A DNA stretch of 28,739 nt, taken from IMG/VR virus record IMGVR_UViG_2698536397_000009, one strand, 5' to 3'. This document shows positions 3,001 through 9,000 of the stretch, piece by piece. Position 1 is the first letter of the stretch. Every line of letters begins with the position of its first letter. The DNA comes from a virus. Taxonomy: Duplodnaviria; Heunggongvirae; Uroviricota; Caudoviricetes. The position numbers were made by a program.

Positions 3001-6000
3001 ATACAAGAACCCTAGGCCAGCGAGTTCTGGCGCGACGAAAAGAATTACGCTTAACACAACGAGAAGCTGCGCGCCTCGCTGGAGTTGCTCACGTCACAAT
3101 TTCACAATGGGAAAGAGACGAAACCCAGCCAGTCGGAAAACGATTGTTTGCTTTAGCGGATGCTCTGAAGTGCTCACCTACATGGCTAATGTTTGGTGAC
3201 GAAGACAAGGCACCAGTGCCTGCACAAGAACTTCATGTGGAAACAGAGCTAACTCCCAACCACAAAGAATTGATCGAATTATTCGATGCTCTTCCATCTT
3301 CCGAGCAGGAAGCCTTGCTGTCTGAAATGCGCGCAAGAGTAGAAAACTTCAACAAACTCTTCGAAGAAATGCTTAAAGCGCGTAAAAATAAATCAATAAA
3401 ATAACATTCTTTTCAAGTGATTAGTTGCGCCCACTCTTTTTGTTAGGCTAATCTAACAAAAACACCTGCCTCTCATGTTAGGTTATTCTAAATTACTTTC
3501 CATCAAGACACCGCACGGTGTTCTCAGCAAACAGTTCCGCTACCCCGGCGTTAAGGGGAAATGAGGTCAGCATGGATACTATCGATCTTGGCAACAGCGA
3601 ATCTCTGGTATGTGGCGTGTTCCCCAACCAGGACGGCACGTTCACCGCGATGACGTATACCAAAAGCAAAACGTTTAAAACCGAAAATGGTGCCCGTCGC
3701 TGGCTGGAAAGAAACTCAGGTGAGTGATATGGATTTCGACACAATCATGGAAAAGGCTTACGAAGAATACTTCGAAGGCCTTGCCGAAGGCGAAGAAGCT
3801 CTCAGCTTCAGTGAGTTTAAACAGGCACTCAGAATAAGAATGTGCTCTCACAATGACGCGGAGCACAAATATGAGAAGCAAAATCAGACCGCAGAAAATT
3901 TTGTTCTGGAACCCGGAGAAACGCTTTTCAAAATTCCCGTTACGTGCCCCATTTGCGGTTTTACATCAGAAGAACTTGACGACTCCTGTAACAATCAGGA
4001 AACAACCAAGTATGTCGAAGATGATACCGAGTGCGCACGAAGAACGATTATATCCACGAGTCCAAACTCCAGGGCCAATAAATCTCACTTTGAGAGGATG
4101 ATTAATCCACTCCCCCAAACCAATAAAAAAGATGCCGGAGGACAAAAAACCCAATGGAACAACGGGATATCTGTCAAAAAAAGACGTTCCATTAAAGACA
4201 AACAACGCAGCGCCAACAACTGTAAGCGCTTTATACCAGTAATCAATTTTCATGTTCTTAAGCGGATTTATTGGTGGTTGCGACATTGCTTAATGAATCC
4301 TTAAAACTGTGGTGATTTTAAGGATACCACCTCGCCTGACGTGGTTAAAAGCAGGCACACAACACGAAAGCGCACGGCGAAGTTCGTCTCACTGTACGGT
4401 GTCGTTAAATTTAATTCGACCGTGCGCTTCCGGTTGTGGCAACCCGCAAAATGGCGCGGCGGTAAGTATGGCGGGGTTATTCCTTCCCCGTTGAGGACAC
4501 CGGGTTGTCAGGTTGACCATACGCTTAAGTGACAACCCCGCTGCAACGCCCTCTGTTATCAATTTTCTGGTGACGTTTGGCGGTATCAGTTTTACTCCGT
4601 GACTGCTCTGCCGCCGTTTTTAAAGTGAATTTTGTTATGCGGTGAATGCGGCTAAGCGCACGCGGAACAGTTAAAACCAAAAACAGTGTTATGGGTGGAT
4701 TCTCTGTATCCGACGTTAATTGTTAACTGGTTAACGTCACCTGGAGGCACCAGGCTCTGCATCACAAAATTTATTGTTGAGGACGCGATAATGAAAACGT
4801 TATTACCAAACGTTAATACGTCTGAAGGTTGTTTTGAAATTGGTGTCACTATCAGTAACCCTGTATTTACTGAAGATGCCATTAACAAGAGAAAACAAGA
4901 ACGGGAGCTATTAAATAAAATATGCATTGTTTCAATGCTGGCTCGTTTACGTCTGATGCCAAAAGGATGTGCACAATGAATTCAGCATTTGCGCTTGTTC
5001 TGACAGTTTTTCTTGTTTCCGGAGTGCCAGTTGATATTGCAGTCAGTGTTCACAGGACAATGCAGGAGTGTATGACTGCAGCAACCGAACAGAAAATTCC
5101 CGGTAACTGTTACCCGGTCGATAAAGTTATTAACCAGGATAATATCGAAATCTCGGCAGGTCTTTAAAACAGTTCCGTAATAAATATCCGGTTTCATTCT
5201 TATATGCCAGCAATGGCAGGGATTTGTTCATCCTTAAATCTGTCATGAGGTTAAAACAAAATGAGTAAAGTCTTTATTTGCGCCGCTATTCCTGACGAAC
5301 TGGCAACAAGGGAAGAAGGCGCTGTGGCTGTAGCCACAGCCATTGAAGCTGGCGACGAACGCCGTGCTCGAGCAAAATTTCACTGGCAATTCCTGGAACA
5401 TTATCCGGCTGCTCAGGACTGCGCTTATAAATTTATTGTCTGCGAGGATAAACCTGGCATACCCCGCCCTGCCCTCGATTCATGGGATGCTGAATATATG
5501 CAGGAAAACCGCTGGGATGAGGAGTCTGCTTCTTTTGTCCCGAATGAGACTGAATCCGATCCGATGAACGTCACTTTTGACAAGCTGGCCCCTGAAGTAC
5601 AGAACGCTGTCATGGTTAAGTTCGACACATGTGAAAACATCACCGTTGATATGGTTATTAGCGCACAGGAATTGTTGCAGGAAGACATGGCAACATTCGA
5701 CGGACATATCGTTGAAGCGTTGATGAAAATGCCAGAAGTTAACGCCATGTATCCGGAGCTTAAGTTGCACGCCATTGGGTGGGTTAAGCATAAATGTATT
5801 CCTGGTGCTAAATGGCCCGAAATTCAGGCAGAGATGCGCATCTGGAAAAAACGTCGCGAAGGTGAACGCAAGGAAACCGGAAAATACACGTCTGTTGTTG
5901 ATCTCGCACGCGCCAGAGCCAATCAACAGTACACTGAAAATTCAACAGGAAAAATCAGCCCGGTCATTGCTGCCATTCATCGCGAATACAAGCAGACATG

Positions 6001-9000
6001 GAAAACACTGGATGACGAACTGGCCTACGCTCTCTGGCCTGGTGATGTGGATGCCGGAAACATTGACGGCAGCATCCATCGCTGGGCAAAAAAAGAAGTT
6101 ATCGACAACGACCGCGAAGACTGGAAGCGTATCTCGGCATCAATGCGCAAACAGCCTGATGCCCTTCGCTACGACCGCCAGACTATTTTTGGCCTTGTCC
6201 GTGAGCGTCCGATCGACATTCACAAAGATCCCGTAGCACTGAACAAATATATCTGCGAATACCTGACGACAAAGGGCGTGTTTGAGAATGAAGAAACAGA
6301 CCTGGGCACTGTTGATGTTCTCCAGTCATCAGAAACACAAACTGATGCAGTGGAAACTGAGGTATCTGATATCCCAAAAAATGAAACCGCGCCGGAAGCT
6401 GAACCATCTGTAGAGCGTGAGGGGCCGTTCTATTTCCTCTTCGCAGATAAGGACGGAGAAAAATACGGTCGCGCAAACAAACTTTCTGGTCTGGATAAGG
6501 CACTGGCTGCTGGCGCCACTGAAATCACAAAAGAAGAATATTTTGCCCGAAAAAATGGCACATACACGGGCTTACCGCAAAATGTAGATACCGCTGAAGA
6601 TTCAGAACAACCAGAGCCGATAAAAGTTACCGCTGACGAAGTAAACAAAATTATGCAGGCAGCCAATATCAGCCAGCCTGACGCTGATAAGTTGCTTGCT
6701 GCATCACGTGGTGAATTTGTTGAAGGGATTAGTGACCCGAATGATCCGAAATGGGTTAAGGGGATCCAGACCCGCGATTCTGTGAACCAGAACCAGCATG
6801 AATCGGAACGGAACTACCAAAAAGCGGAACAAAACAGTCCAAATGCGTTACAAAACGAGCCAGTAACGAAACAGCCTGAACCAGTAGCGCAACAGGAAGT
6901 GGAAAAAGTCTGCACCGCCTGCGGTCAGACCGGCGGCGGCAACTGCCCTGATTGTGGCGCGGTGATGGGCGACGCAACATACCAGGAAACATTCGATGAA
7001 GAGTATCAGGTTGAAGTTCAGGAAGATGATCCGGAGGAAATGCAAGGCGCTGAACATCCACACAAGGAGAACACTGGCGGCAATCAGCATCACAATAGCG
7101 ATAATGAAACTGGCGAGACGGCAGATCACCCAATTAAGGTGAACGGTCATCACGAAATCACATCCACCAGCAGGGCGTGTGACCATCTAATGATCGACCT
7201 TGAAACCATGGGAAAAAATCCTGATGCCCCGATCATCTCAATAGGTGCAATATTTTTCGATCCGCAAACCGGAGATATGGGACCGGAATTTAGTAAGACT
7301 ATCGATCTGGAAACTGCTGGCGGAGTCATTGATCGGGACACCATTAAATGGTGGCTTAAGCAATCACGCGAAGCGCAATCTGCCATTATGACCGATGAAA
7401 TCCCGTTAGATGATGCACTGTTACAATTGCGGGAATTTATCGACGAAAACTCCGGTGAATTTTTTGTTCAGGTTTGGGGAAATGGAGCCAACTTCGACAA
7501 CACGATTTTGCGCCGTTCATACGAACGGCAGGGGATCCCCTGCCCGTGGCGTTACTACAACGATCGCGATGTACGCACAATCGTTGAGCTGGGGAAAGCC
7601 ATAGACTTCGATGCCAGAACGGCTATTCCATTCGAAGGTGAGCGCCATAATGCACTTGATGACGCCCGTTACCAGGCAAAATACGTTTCAGTTATCTGGC
7701 AAAAACTGATCCCGAGTCAGGCTGATTCTTAATGTTCAACTGTCGCCGGTTGTGACTGGTATTCTGCAACCGGCGCTCGTCTGATGTAAGAGATAAAGAA
7801 ATCGATGAGCGAAGTAATCATGATTGTCTCTCCCGGCAAATGGGTATCCGAAGAGCAGTTAATTGCGCTGAAAGGAATAAAAAAAGGTACGTTAAAAAAG
7901 GCCCGGGAAAAATCGTTTATGGAAGGAAGGGAATATAAGCATGTCGCTCATGACGGTATGCCATGGGATAACAGTCCATGCTTTTACAACCTGGAAGAAA
8001 TTGATCGCTGGATTGAGCGCCAGGCATCAGCGAGACCAAGACGTCATCTTACTTGACTAAAAGCCACACTAACTAATGAGAGAAGTTGAAATGAAATATC
8101 CGACAGGCGTGGAAAACCATGGAGGGAAATTACGTATCTGGTTTGTTTATAAAGGCGTAAGAGTCAGGGAAAATCTGGGGGTTCCTGACACAGCAAAAAA
8201 CAGGCGCGTTGCAGGTGAACTACGCTCCTCTGTTTGTTACGCAATAAAAACTGGTGTTTTCGACTATGCAAAACAGTTTCCCTCCTCACGCAATCTGGAA
8301 AAATTTGGTGAGGCCCGACAAGATTTAACCATAAAAGAACTGGCTGAAAAATTTCTGGCACTGAAAGAAACTGAAGTCGCCAAAACATCACTCAACACAT
8401 ACCGTGCCGTCATCAAAAATATCCTGAGCATAATCGGTGAAAAAAATCTTGCCTCATCGATTAATAAAGAAAAATTACTGGAGGTTCGTAAAGAGTTACT
8501 GACTGGATACCAGATCCCCAAAAGTAACTATATTGTTACACAACCAGGGAGATCGGCTGTAACTGTAAATAATTACATGACAAATCTTAACGCCGTGTTC
8601 CAGTTTGGTGTTGATAACGGTTACCTGGCAGATAATCCGTTTAAGGGGATCTCGCCATTAAAGGAATCAAGAACCATTCCGGATCCTCTTTCGCGGGAAG
8701 AATTTATCCGTCTTATCGATGCGTGCAGAAATCAGCAAGCAAAAAATTTATGGTGTGTTTCTGTTTATACTGGCGTTCGCCCTGGTGAGCTGTGTGCACT
8801 TGGATGGGAGGACATAGATCTGAAAAATGGAACAATGATGATCAGGAGAAATTTAGCAAAAGACCGTTTCACGGTACCAAAAACACAGGCGGGAACCAAT
8901 CGGGTCATTCATCTTATTAAGCCAGCAATCGACGCTCTCCGGAGTCAGATGACATTAACGAGACTGAGCAAAGAGCATATCATTGATGTTCACCTCAGAG

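What the first reader, a model, noticed from the sequence alone, without database searches (positions are those of the whole stretch)
5261..7732. Mosaic exonuclease: long N-terminal region, central Cys4 zinc ribbon and C-terminal DEDDh 3'-5' exonuclease motifs
Seen: DLETMG, NGANFDN and HNALDDARY motifs in the last ~190 residues, typical of DnaQ-like 3'-5' exonucleases, plus CTACGQTGGGNCPDCG in the middle. The gene sits where lambdoid phages carry exo/recE, which are 5'-3' exonucleases of a different fold. Inference: a non-orthologous replacement or fusion in the recombination module, with unknown activity on DNA versus RNA.
Basis: partly seen in the sequence, partly recalled or inferred. Interest (0 to 1): 0.45.

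Follow-up and report, generated by a model that had tools for sequence, protein, structure and literature searches.

The report
Prophage exonuclease on a RecE scaffold
This is the intact form of the E. coli prophage gene ydfE: a RecE-like, non-catalytic front part joined to a DnaQ/DexA-type 3'-5' exonuclease instead of RecE's own nuclease. It is very common and already annotated, but nobody has tested what it does.

Summary
ORF 5261-7732 (+) encodes 823 aa. A Cys4 ribbon lies at aa 551-566. A complete DEDDh domain covers aa 641-823 (Pfam PF16473, E 2e-67). Its five catalytic residues are conserved in relatives, and its AlphaFold model matches T4 DexA best.

The protein is a mosaic:
- aa 1-256 are the K-12 ydfE remnant.
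- aa 262-627 are homologous to Rac RecE 278-592, ribbon included.
- Similarity stops where RecE's PD-(D/E)xK nuclease begins, and the DEDDh domain takes its place.

The gene is the last one of the DicA-controlled early-left operon (dicA-DicF-dicB-ydfD-exo-xis-int). No annealase, SSB or Gam lies nearby.

The same front part occurs elsewhere fused to a PD-(D/E)xK nuclease (followed by RecT) or to an annealase-like tail (preceded by Gam). Free-standing relatives of the DEDDh domain sit inside P22-like recombination modules.

My best reading is a DNA 3'-5' exonuclease delivered to DNA ends by a RecE-type platform during lytic growth. Its biological role is only inferred.

It is not new as an object. 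It occurs in most complete E. coli genomes, is annotated "3'-5' exonuclease", has Pfam YdfE_N/YdfE_C families, and DnaQ-type nucleases near int were reported in 2025. Interest is modest.

The parts
5261..7732 (+). Whole CDS, 823 aa: the intact YdfE-family exonuclease (identical to RefSeq WP_000048308.1, '3'-5' exonuclease')
   Evidence: PHROG 2082 matched end to end
5261..6028 (+). aa 1-256: YdfE_N-type module, with an alpha/beta domain (aa 1-100) and a helical domain (aa 105-206). 255 of 256 residues are identical to the K-12 ydfE pseudogene remnant.
5996..6280 (+). aa 246-340: helical domain homologous to RecE aa ~278-350 (start of the RecE-like central region, part of Pfam YdfE_C)
   Evidence: (pLDDT ~90)
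6422..6556 (+). aa 388-432: small beta-hairpin plus helix domain (GPFY...GRANK...EI..EEY.ARK). It is conserved in YdfE-type relatives and absent from K-12 RecE.
6686..7127 (+). Segment with 78% DNA identity to Rac recE (aa 476-622). The identity ends at the RecE nuclease-domain boundary, which marks the recombination junction.
   Evidence: protein alignment
6707..6757 (+). aa 483-499: short conserved motif RGEFVEGISDPNDPKWV in a low-confidence (likely disordered) acidic linker. It is shared by platform proteins carrying all three kinds of C-terminal effector and is a candidate docking site.
6911..6958 (+). aa 551-566: Cys4 zinc ribbon, CxxC-x7-CxxC, shared with RecE
   Evidence: AlphaFold pLDDT 65-77
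7181..7729 (+). aa 641-823: DEDDh 3'-5' exonuclease domain (PF16473, DexA/EcD/Rv2179c family). Catalytic residues are D646, E648, D746, H796 and D801.
2997..3404 (+). dicA (repressor of the operon that contains the gene)
4565..4616 (+). DicF sRNA, upstream in the same operon
   Evidence: Rfam RF00039, 72.5 bits
4791..5167 (+). dicB (4791-4979) and ydfD (4976-5167), the genes immediately upstream
7805..9371 (+). Excisionase (7805-8056) and tyrosine integrase (8076-9371), immediately downstream. No recT-like gene lies between them and the exonuclease.

Best explanation
The gene encodes a modular DNA-end enzyme. Its C-terminal 183 residues form a two-metal DEDDh exonuclease that removes nucleotides from 3' ends, most likely from single-stranded DNA or 3' tails. 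The first ~640 residues are a non-catalytic platform. It comprises the YdfE_N domains, a RecE-like helical domain, a small beta domain, and an acidic, probably disordered linker that carries a conserved short motif and a Cys4 ribbon. This platform is the same kind of front part that RecE carries. It probably brings whatever effector is attached to a common partner or DNA site.

The gene is transcribed with dicB from the DicA-repressed early-left promoter, so the protein should be made on induction or infection and not in the quiet lysogen. These phages encode no annealase, SSB or RecBCD inhibitor. I therefore infer that the enzyme trims 3' tails on phage (or host) DNA so that host recombination can act on the ends. 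In this sense it may stand in for a recombination module as a single gene.

Shown: domain identity, the mosaic junction, residue conservation, gene context and purifying selection. Inferred: DNA rather than RNA as substrate, the targeting role of the platform, and the biological role.
For: Domain and fold:
- PF16473 matches at E 2e-67.
- The five catalytic residues are conserved.
- The AlphaFold model is confident and its best PDB match is T4 DexA, a DNA exonuclease.

DNA as substrate:
- The domain is 39% identical (E 2e-38) to a 189-aa PF16473 protein. That protein starts with the published EcD cloning-primer sequence and has Ala78 as reported for EcD.
- EcD and DexA are DNA exonucleases in vitro (PMC12153337).
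- The closest free-standing relatives (56-58% identity) lie between SSB and Abc2, next to a Rad52/Erf-type annealase, in phages epsilon34 and CurroJimenez_Bas106. Zheng et al. 2025 count such genes as recombination-module members.

Platform with swapped effectors:
- The same YdfE_N+YdfE_C front part is fused to a PD-(D/E)xK domain and followed by a RecT-family gene (PF03837, E 2e-36).
- It is also fused to an annealase-like tail, in one locus preceded by Gam.
- At least eight 50%-identity clusters combine RecE's PF06630 N-terminus with PF16473.
- The motif RGEFVEGISDPNDPKW is kept across all three effector types.

Context:
- In ten DEDDh-fusion loci from Escherichia, Shigella and unnamed enterobacterial records, the gene is the last one of a short early-left operon. 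Where the flank is long enough, xis and/or int follow. Annotation or tblastn found no annealase, SSB or Gam.
- No promoter-like site lies on the + strand between dicA and int.

Functionality:
- dN/dS is 0.12-0.43 per module.
- The gene is intact in 3537 of 5426 complete E. coli genomes.
- A 99.5% identical copy is present in the isolated phage HannyBb.
- HannyBb has 5 Chi sites on one strand and 2 on the other, against 0.85 and 0.41 expected, and no RecBCD inhibitor.
Against: - No biochemical or genetic data exist for this protein, and nothing on it was found in the searchable literature.
- The Pfam family is named after an exoribonuclease, and DEDDh enzymes often cut both DNA and RNA.
- 3'-5' exonucleases usually lower, rather than raise, homologous recombination (Zheng et al. 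2025, citing Lovett 2011). The same authors do not count DnaQ-type genes next to int as recombination-module members.
- The platform has no recognisable structural relative, so its targeting role is inferred only from its reuse.
- The annealase identity of the third effector type rests on depositors' labels and a motif. hhalign, PDB and NCBIfam searches did not confirm it.
- HannyBb's Chi count (7) is far below the 23 of phage LLS.
- K-12 carries only a truncated copy.
Confidence: 0.5

Rival explanations
1. Superinfection exclusion or defence nuclease of the EcD/HREX type. In this reading the DEDDh domain degrades incoming modified (5hmC) DNA of T-even phages and so protects the lysogen.
For: - The domain belongs to the same Pfam family as EcD and is 39% identical to a near-identical EcD homologue.
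- Plasmid-borne EcD protected E. coli against T4 and cut T4 DNA (PMC12153337).
- The gene is kept intact in most E. coli genomes, often inside cryptic prophages. A host benefit would explain that.
Against: - The two residues the paper ties to 5hmC recognition are not kept. DexA W152 aligns with Y766, while most relatives have Trp. DexA D169 and the EcD Glu align with A780 and K779.
- The Asp whose loss defines the EcD 'dimer-only' state is present here (D717/D718).
- The gene lies inside the repressor-controlled early-left operon with no promoter-like site of its own. That is not the usual place for a lysogen-expressed defence gene.
- PADLOC gives only a weak generic DEDDh hit (23.5 bits).
- EcD is a 189-aa stand-alone protein, not a platform fusion.
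Confidence: 0.12
2. A 3'-5' exoribonuclease, like Rv2179c or RNase T. It would trim RNA 3' ends during phage development, for example host RNAs or transcripts of its own operon, DicF precursors included.
For: - The Pfam family is named for the M. tuberculosis exoribonuclease Rv2179c (Abendroth et al. 2014, as cited in PMC8628891).
- After DexA, the next structural matches are RNase T, 3'hExo, ERI and oligoribonuclease.
- DicF, a processed sRNA, is encoded in the same operon.
Against: - The nearest characterised relatives by sequence and structure (EcD, DexA) are DNA exonucleases.
- The closest stand-alone relatives sit between SSB and Abc2 in DNA recombination modules.
- The same platform otherwise carries a DNA exonuclease or an annealase-like domain.
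- Several of the listed RNase T structures are complexes with DNA.
Confidence: 0.12
3. Host-DNA scavenging or another host-takeover or anti-defence nuclease. It would degrade host chromosome fragments, as DexA does in T4, or defence-related nucleic acids, with no link to recombination.
For: - DexA's classical role is host DNA breakdown.
- The gene is expressed with the host-directed dicB/DicF genes.
- The whole protein is strongly acidic (net charge about -63), as some phage proteins that target host DNA enzymes are.
Against: - Temperate lambdoid phages are not known to degrade the host chromosome (my own knowledge).
- The platform is shared with RecE and with annealase-like fusions, and the stand-alone relatives sit in recombination modules. 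Both point to recombination-type DNA transactions.
- Nothing links the protein to any defence system.
Confidence: 0.12
4. An evolutionary left-over: a chimeric gene made by illegitimate or homologous exchange between prophages, carried along without function.
For: - The gene is an obvious recombinant. Between the same two genomes, synonymous divergence ranges from 0.008 to 0.37 across its modules.
- Many copies lie in cryptic prophages.
- K-12's copy is cut by IS2 and Shigella's appears broken.
Against: - dN/dS is 0.12-0.43 in every module that has enough divergence.
- The five catalytic residues are conserved across 50%-identity clusters.
- The gene is full length in 3537 complete E. coli genomes and in a plaque-forming phage.
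- The same architecture recurs in at least nine divergent clusters.
Confidence: 0.04

Closest known systems
RecE (exonuclease VIII) of the Rac prophage
   Same: - Same operon position (late in the early-left operon, shortly upstream of xis-int) and similar size.
- Homologous central region (aa 262-627 against RecE 278-592). It includes the motif RGEF(V/I)(E/D)GISDPNDPKW and the Cys4 ribbon, at about 80% identity over the last 150 residues.
- In both proteins the front part is non-catalytic and of unknown function.
   Different: - The catalytic domain is DEDDh (3'-5') here, not PD-(D/E)xK PF12684 (5'-3').
- The first 256 aa are YdfE_N-type, not PF06630.
- RecE lacks the small beta domain at aa 388-432.
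- No recT follows.
- The NCBIfam RecE equivalog scores 277 bits against a cut-off of 1269.
T4 DexA and E. coli EcD (DexA-like DNA exonucleases; PDB 8KEL/8KEN; Kang et al. 2025)
   Same: - Same Pfam family (PF16473) and same five catalytic residues.
- DexA is the best structural match, and identity to the EcD-like protein is 39%.
   Different: - DexA and EcD are stand-alone proteins of 189-227 aa. Here the domain ends an 823-aa platform protein.
- The proposed 5hmC-recognition residues (W152, D169) are Y766 and A780 here.
- The context is a temperate early-left operon, not a T4 early gene.
Stand-alone DnaQ-like exonucleases of P22-like recombination modules (epsilon34 gp34, Bas106_0031)
   Same: - They are the closest relatives of the catalytic domain outside the fusions (56-58% identity).
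- They are encoded in the early-left operon of lambdoid phages.
- They are recognised as recombination-module nucleases by Zheng et al. 2025.
   Different: - They are 182 aa with no platform.
- They are flanked by a Rad52/Erf-type annealase, SSB and Abc2. The fused gene here has none of these partners and sits next to xis-int, a position those authors exclude from the module.
M. tuberculosis Rv2179c (founder of PF16473)
   Same: Same Pfam family and DEDDh chemistry.
   Different: - It is a cellular stand-alone exoribonuclease.
- It produced no direct sequence hit in the PDB search and is not among the top 50 structural matches.

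Membership tests
DEDDh / DnaQ-like 3'-5' exonucleases, subfamily PF16473 (Rv2179c/DexA-like) | Profile match above the curated threshold over the whole domain | tested here: met
   226.5 bits against a cut-off of 27, profile positions 2-177 of 177, aa 642-813
DEDDh / DnaQ-like 3'-5' exonucleases, subfamily PF16473 (Rv2179c/DexA-like) | Exo I D-x-E, Exo II D and Exo III H-x4-D residues present and conserved in relatives | tested here: met
   D646, E648, D746, H796 and D801 are each at least 90% conserved in 88 sequences. They align with the catalytic residues of DexA.
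DEDDh / DnaQ-like 3'-5' exonucleases, subfamily PF16473 (Rv2179c/DexA-like) | RNase H-like alpha/beta fold of DEDD nucleases | tested here: met
   AlphaFold pLDDT 95-98 for aa 641-823. Foldseek finds DexA at E 9e-12, then RNase T, 3'hExo and Orn.
DEDDh / DnaQ-like 3'-5' exonucleases, subfamily PF16473 (Rv2179c/DexA-like) | Metal-dependent 3'-5' exonuclease activity; substrate DNA or RNA | not testable with these tools
   Needs purified protein. DNA is inferred from EcD/DexA and from gene context.
RecE / exodeoxyribonuclease VIII (NCBIfam NF007259 equivalog) | C-terminal PD-(D/E)xK nuclease domain (PF12684) | tested here: not met
   There is no PF12684 hit in this protein, while K-12 RecE has it at aa 615-850. 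The fold of the C-terminus is DEDDh.
RecE / exodeoxyribonuclease VIII (NCBIfam NF007259 equivalog) | Whole-protein score at or above the equivalog cut-off | tested here: not met
   277 bits against 1269; only model positions 271-600 are matched
RecE / exodeoxyribonuclease VIII (NCBIfam NF007259 equivalog) | PF06630 N-terminal domain | tested here: not met
   Absent here. Present in RecE and in the sibling DEDDh fusion of phage 813R8.
RecE / exodeoxyribonuclease VIII (NCBIfam NF007259 equivalog) | Central region with the conserved short motif and the Cys4 ribbon | tested here: met
   aa 262-627 against RecE 278-592; 78% DNA identity over aa 476-622
RecE / exodeoxyribonuclease VIII (NCBIfam NF007259 equivalog) | RecT-family annealase gene immediately downstream | tested here: not met
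   xis follows after 72 nt. No RecT match was found by tblastn in the four related loci scanned that carry the DEDDh domain, whereas the one PD-(D/E)xK fusion locus in the same scan (L021) gave one. L010 was shown separately to have a RecT-family gene.
Lambdoid recombination (Rec) module as defined by Zheng et al. 2025 | [quoted passage not shown] | tested here: not met
   Only dicA, ydfA/B-like ORFs, DicF, dicB and ydfD lie upstream, and xis-int downstream. The same holds in phage HannyBb.
HREX / EcD-type 5hmC-directed defence exonuclease (Kang et al. 2025) | Homology to DexA/EcD with the catalytic residues intact | tested here: met
   39% identity, E 2e-38, to the EcD-like 189-aa protein; catalytic residues
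HREX / EcD-type 5hmC-directed defence exonuclease (Kang et al. 2025) | Trp (DexA W152) and an acidic residue (DexA D169) proposed to recognise 5hmC | tested here: not met
   Y766 and A780 (K779 opposite the EcD Glu). The alignment in the D169 region is not secure, so this is a weak negative.
HREX / EcD-type 5hmC-directed defence exonuclease (Kang et al. 2025) | Loss of the tetramer-forming Asp (DexA D90; Ala78 in EcD) | tested here: not met
   Asp-Asp (D717/D718) lies at the aligned position
HREX / EcD-type 5hmC-directed defence exonuclease (Kang et al. 2025) | Protection of the cell against T-even phages | not testable with these tools
   Needs plaque assays. No own promoter-like site was found.

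The most novel reading that the evidence does not exclude
The front 600-odd residues that RecE and YdfE-type proteins share may be an autonomous targeting platform that temperate enterobacterial phages reuse for interchangeable DNA-end effectors. The effectors seen are a 5'-3' PD-(D/E)xK nuclease, a 3'-5' DEDDh nuclease and an annealase-like domain. On this reading the DEDDh version is a one-gene substitute for a recombination module. It would prepare DNA ends for the host RecBCD/RecA machinery in phages that encode no annealase and no RecBCD inhibitor. If so, the conserved motif RGEFVEGISDPNDPKW and the ribbon would be the docking site. That would finally give a handle on the long-unexplained N-terminal part of RecE.
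Probability: 0.2. Interest if true: 0.6.

Novelty: new member of a known kind. Interest (0 to 1): 0.3.

Why it matters
The gene is found in most E. coli genomes, yet no paper in the searchable library addresses what it does. K-12, the reference strain, carries only a stump of it. Its value lies less in the exonuclease domain, which is a clear member of a known family, than in what the mosaic reveals. RecE's enigmatic non-catalytic front part is a mobile platform that appears with three different DNA-processing ends. That makes RecE's N-terminus an experimentally approachable question through pull-downs, motif mutants and domain swaps. It could also explain how the many lambdoid phages without a recombination module handle their DNA ends. 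On the practical side, the Pfam name 'Exonuc_VIII' for a non-catalytic domain and the PHROG label 'exonuclease' for annealase-like fusions are spreading wrong annotations.

Tried and rejected
- The full-length search of the 5.8-billion-protein collection returned only E. coli relatives at 87-94% identity and no diversity. The 50%-representative search replaced it.
- The first platform alignment (23 sequences) was too diverse for the locus search. A 6-sequence alignment worked.
- The afdb50 fold library was not available.
- I could not prove that the third effector tail is a Rad52-type annealase. phmmer and hmmsearch against the PDB, hhalign against epsilon34 gp36, Pfam and NCBIfam all failed. 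Only depositor labels in phage records and a KKSLTDA..KKALS.LGF motif support it, so I call it 'annealase-like'.
- The Rv2179c paper is not held, and the supplementary tables of Zheng et al. are not held. I could not check whether this gene is in their tables.
- Literature searches for ydfE, the RefSeq accession, YdfE_N/YdfE_C and PF16473 found nothing on function.
- I considered and rejected a PD-(D/E)xK assignment of the C-terminus, membership in a PADLOC defence system, and a separate promoter for the gene (consensus scan only).
- The dN/dS values for E. albertii locus L016 in the DEDDh part are unreliable because that copy has a frameshift.

Full report
**1. What is in the sequence**

The finding's coordinates coincide exactly with an open reading frame of 823 codons on the + strand (5261-7732, stop included). 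It has an ATG start, with GAGG nine bases upstream.
- DLETMG at aa 646-651
- NGANFDN at aa 741-747
- HNALDDARY at aa 796-804
- CTACGQTGGGNCPDCG at aa 551-566

The window is a Qin/DicB-type lambdoid prophage inserted beside rspB-rspA-ynfA-ynfB-speG. The local gene order is dicC / dicA - ydfA - ydfB-like - DicF - dicB - ydfD - this gene - xis - int. The DNA is 100% identical to copies in several E. coli genomes. There the product is WP_000048308.1, annotated 'exonuclease' or '3'-5' exonuclease'.

**2. The C-terminal domain is a DEDDh exonuclease, not a RecE-type nuclease**

- Pfam PF16473 (Rv2179c-like 3'-5' exoribonuclease domain) matches aa 642-813 over the whole profile, at E 2.4e-67.
- In an alignment of 88 relatives taken from clusters at 50% identity, D646, E648, D746, H796 and D801 are each at least 90% conserved.
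- An AlphaFold2 model of aa 471-823 has pLDDT 95-98 for aa 641-823.
- Its best solved match is T4 DexA (8kel, Foldseek E 9e-12). RNase T, 3'hExo, ERI, oligoribonuclease and Cap18 follow.
- DexA is also the only sequence-level PDB hit (E 1.5e-6).
- No PD-(D/E)xK family matches this protein, whereas K-12 RecE has PF12684 at aa 615-850.

**3. The protein is a three-part mosaic with a clean junction**

- aa 1-256 are 255/256 identical to the K-12 ydfE pseudogene product, which IS2 cuts at exactly that point.
- aa 262-627 align with Rac RecE aa 278-592. Identity is 39% overall and about 80% over aa 474-627. This stretch contains the motif RGEFVEGISDPNDPKWV and the Cys4 ribbon.
- At the DNA level, identity to recE is 78% over gene positions 1426-1867 (aa 476-622) and then stops.
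- That end point is the boundary of RecE's nuclease domain, given as residues 564-866 in a 2023 review, which also calls the N-terminal part 'of unknown function' (PMC11611040).
- NCBIfam's RecE equivalog matches only model positions 271-600 and scores 277 bits against a cut-off of 1269.

The 813-aa protein of phage vB_EcoS-813R8 has RecE's PF06630 N-terminus instead of the YdfE-type one. From gene position 1361 onward it is 97.7% identical in DNA. The N-terminal module is therefore exchangeable as well.

Between this gene and an E. albertii copy, synonymous divergence is 0.24, 0.37, 0.09 and 0.008 in successive modules. That is the signature of intragenic recombination. dN/dS is 0.12-0.43 wherever there is enough divergence to measure it.

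**4. Anatomy of the non-catalytic part**

An AlphaFold2 model of aa 1-470 (23-sequence alignment) gives four confident units joined by low-confidence linkers:
- an alpha/beta domain (aa 1-100)
- a helical domain (aa 105-206)
- a helical domain (aa 246-340, the start of the RecE-like region)
- a small beta-hairpin plus helix unit (aa 388-432)

In the other model, aa 471-640 are mostly low confidence, and the ribbon reaches pLDDT 65-77. The whole protein is very acidic, with a net charge of about -63.

Newer Pfam releases name these regions YdfE_N (PF27430) and YdfE_C (PF27432). This is seen in the precomputed annotations.

**5. The platform carries interchangeable effectors**

The search of 1.84 billion cluster representatives found 11,734 relatives. 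Pfam scans, motif scans and locus analysis of the long ones show the following architectures:

| Front part | C-terminal effector | Examples | Neighbouring genes |
|---|---|---|---|
| PF06630 | PF12684 PD-(D/E)xK | RecE | recT downstream |
| PF06630 | PF16473 DEDDh | at least eight clusters | xis-int downstream |
| YdfE_N/YdfE_C | PF16473 DEDDh | this gene; E. ruysiae, E. albertii, Shigella | xis-int downstream where the flank is long enough |
| YdfE_N/YdfE_C | PF12684 PD-(D/E)xK | P0139; a metagenome-assembled genome (MAG) | RecT-family gene downstream (PF03837, E 2e-36; tblastn match) |
| YdfE_N/YdfE_C | ~260-aa tail | P0137, P0150, P0153, P0178, P0238; Enterobacter, Pantoea, Erwinia, Pseudescherichia | Gam homologue upstream in one locus (29.3 bits against a cut-off of 25) |
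| YdfE_N/YdfE_C | another tail | P0130 | not examined |

Stand-alone phage homologues of the ~260-aa tail are labelled 'RAD52-like annealing protein' or 'putative single strand-annealing protein' by some depositors. I could not confirm that identity and treat it as a lead.

The short motif at aa 483-499 is kept in proteins with all three effector types.

**6. Context of the DEDDh form**

I examined ten loci that carry a platform-DEDDh fusion:
- the identical E. coli copy
- phage HannyBb
- phage 813R8
- the loci of P0136, P0133 and P0122
- E. ruysiae
- two E. albertii loci
- Shigella

In each, the gene is the last one of a short early-left operon. Where the flank is long enough, xis and/or int follow. 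Annotation or tblastn found no annealase, SSB, Gam or Abc2.

No sigma-70-like site lies on the + strand between dicA and int (a consensus scan only). Expression is therefore presumably from the DicA-repressed promoter.

In contrast, the closest free-standing relatives of the catalytic domain sit between SSB and Abc2, next to a Rad52/Erf-type annealase. These are epsilon34 gp34 (56% identity) and CurroJimenez_Bas106 gp31 (58%).

**7. What is already published**

Zheng, Casjens, Davidson, Amundsen and Smith (Genome Res 2025, PMC12315714) make four relevant points:
- Sporadic DnaQ-type nuclease genes lie 'very near int' and are not counted as module members.
- Some 'RecE-2' proteins lack a nuclease domain.
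- 22% of lambdoid phages have no recombination module and tend to be rich in Chi.

Kang et al. (NAR 2025, PMC12153337) solved the DexA structure. They also showed that an E. coli homologue, EcD, degrades T4 DNA and protects cells against T4.

Using the EcD primer from their supplement, I recovered a 189-aa PF16473 protein from IMG/VR contigs. It has Ala78, as reported for EcD, and is 39% identical to aa 644-816 of this protein. I found no paper on this particular protein.

**8. Mechanism**

*Shown:* the protein is a DEDDh exonuclease domain on a RecE-type platform. It is under purifying selection and sits in the early-left operon without partner genes.

*Inferred, with reasons:*
- **DNA as substrate.** The nearest characterised relatives are DNases. 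The nearest free-standing relatives sit in DNA recombination modules. The same platform otherwise carries a DNA exonuclease or an annealase-like domain.
- **A targeting role for the platform.** It is reused with different effectors, and it keeps a conserved short motif in a disordered linker.
- **The biological role.** I suggest trimming of 3' tails so that host RecBCD/RecA can work on phage DNA ends. This is the weakest step. It rests on the absence of phage recombination and anti-RecBCD genes, and on a modest Chi excess in phage HannyBb (5 and 2 sites against 0.85 and 0.41 expected). Phage LLS has 23 Chi sites. From general knowledge, RecBCD needs nearly blunt ends.

Against this, 3'-5' exonucleases usually depress recombination.

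**9. Rivals**

- **Defence of the EcD type.** It is weakened by the lack of the proposed 5hmC-recognition residues (Y766 for W152; A780/K779 for D169/Glu), by retention of the Asp that EcD lacks, and by the repressed-operon position. PADLOC gives only a weak generic hit.
- **An RNase role.** It fits the family name and some structural neighbours, but not the context.
- **Host-DNA scavenging or anti-defence.** It cannot be excluded.
- **A functionless relic.** It is contradicted by conservation and by the gene's presence in a plaque-forming phage.

**10. Verdict**

The object is a member of a known exonuclease family in an architecture that databases already record. It is extremely common: 4799 of 5426 complete E. 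coli genomes have a match, 3537 of them nearly full length.

The added value here is threefold:
- the exact junction with RecE
- the demonstration that the RecE/YdfE front part is a reusable platform
- the consistent absence of partner genes around the DEDDh form

Interest is modest unless the platform idea is borne out experimentally.

Noticed in passing
window 3687-4304 (+) and 3966-4286 (-): Where K-12 has ydfB-ydfC, this prophage has a 205-aa ORF. It matches PHROG 35040 end to end, and its first 48 aa are YdfB-like. On the opposite strand, fully inside it, lies a 106-aa ORF with three hydrophobic segments and no hit in Pfam, PHROGs or PADLOC. RefSeq leaves the stretch unannotated. Which strand is coding is unclear.
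   Followed up: partly
window 7164-7171 (bottom strand); phage HannyBb PP925841 (L014): A Chi octamer lies inside the exonuclease gene. The related isolated phage HannyBb has 5 Chi on one strand and 2 on the other in 45.3 kb (0.85 and 0.41 expected), and all five lie in the right half. It has no recombination or anti-RecBCD genes. This fits the 'no Rec module' class of Zheng et al. 2025, though far below the 23 sites of LLS.
   Followed up: partly
Pfam PF06630; PHROGs 2489 and 7838; phage records ON470619, EU570103, JQ177065: Pfam 'Exonuc_VIII' (PF06630) is RecE's non-catalytic N-terminus (aa 2-178). Its name, and PHROG labels inherited from RecE-like front parts, appear to drive wrong annotations. 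DEDDh proteins are called 'exodeoxyribonuclease VIII', and annealase-like domains are called 'exonuclease'.
   Followed up: partly
IMG/VR loci L029, L034, L044, L045, L047, L050: The published 'bacterial defence' exonuclease EcD (HREX), or a near-identical 189-aa homologue, is found on six viral or prophage contigs of IMG/VR. It is thus probably prophage-borne rather than a core bacterial gene. Its neighbourhood was not analysed.
   Followed up: partly
L011 4693-7337; L022-L026: Enterobacter, Pantoea, Erwinia and Pseudescherichia prophages encode the YdfE-type platform fused to an annealase-like tail. KilR is found upstream in four of the six loci, and a Gam homologue was shown in L011 only. 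This may be the 'RecE-2 without nuclease domain' class mentioned by Zheng et al. 2025. The annealase identity is unproven.
   Followed up: partly
window 9559-10603 (-): rspB is split into two overlapping ORFs (150 aa and 219 aa) instead of one 339-aa frame. The break lies near ...EKAKESG / ADWAIN... This suggests a frameshift, either a pseudogene or a sequencing error.
   Followed up: no
window 20054-28528: A second mobile-element segment follows the ynf/dms genes. It holds an sRNA-Xcc1 match (20054-20142), an Ant-type anti-repressor (20183-20815), several phage ORFs of unknown function, a sok antitoxin RNA (23381-23555), and a 1308-aa 'polyvalent' protein with MuF_C and LPD38 domains (24602-28528, - strand).
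   Followed up: partly
window 41-577 (+): The partial ORF at the window start carries DUF4209. It corresponds to the C-terminus of the 'DUF7380' protein annotated between hokD and the replication genes in a related prophage. This may be a moron or defence candidate inside the prophage.
   Followed up: no
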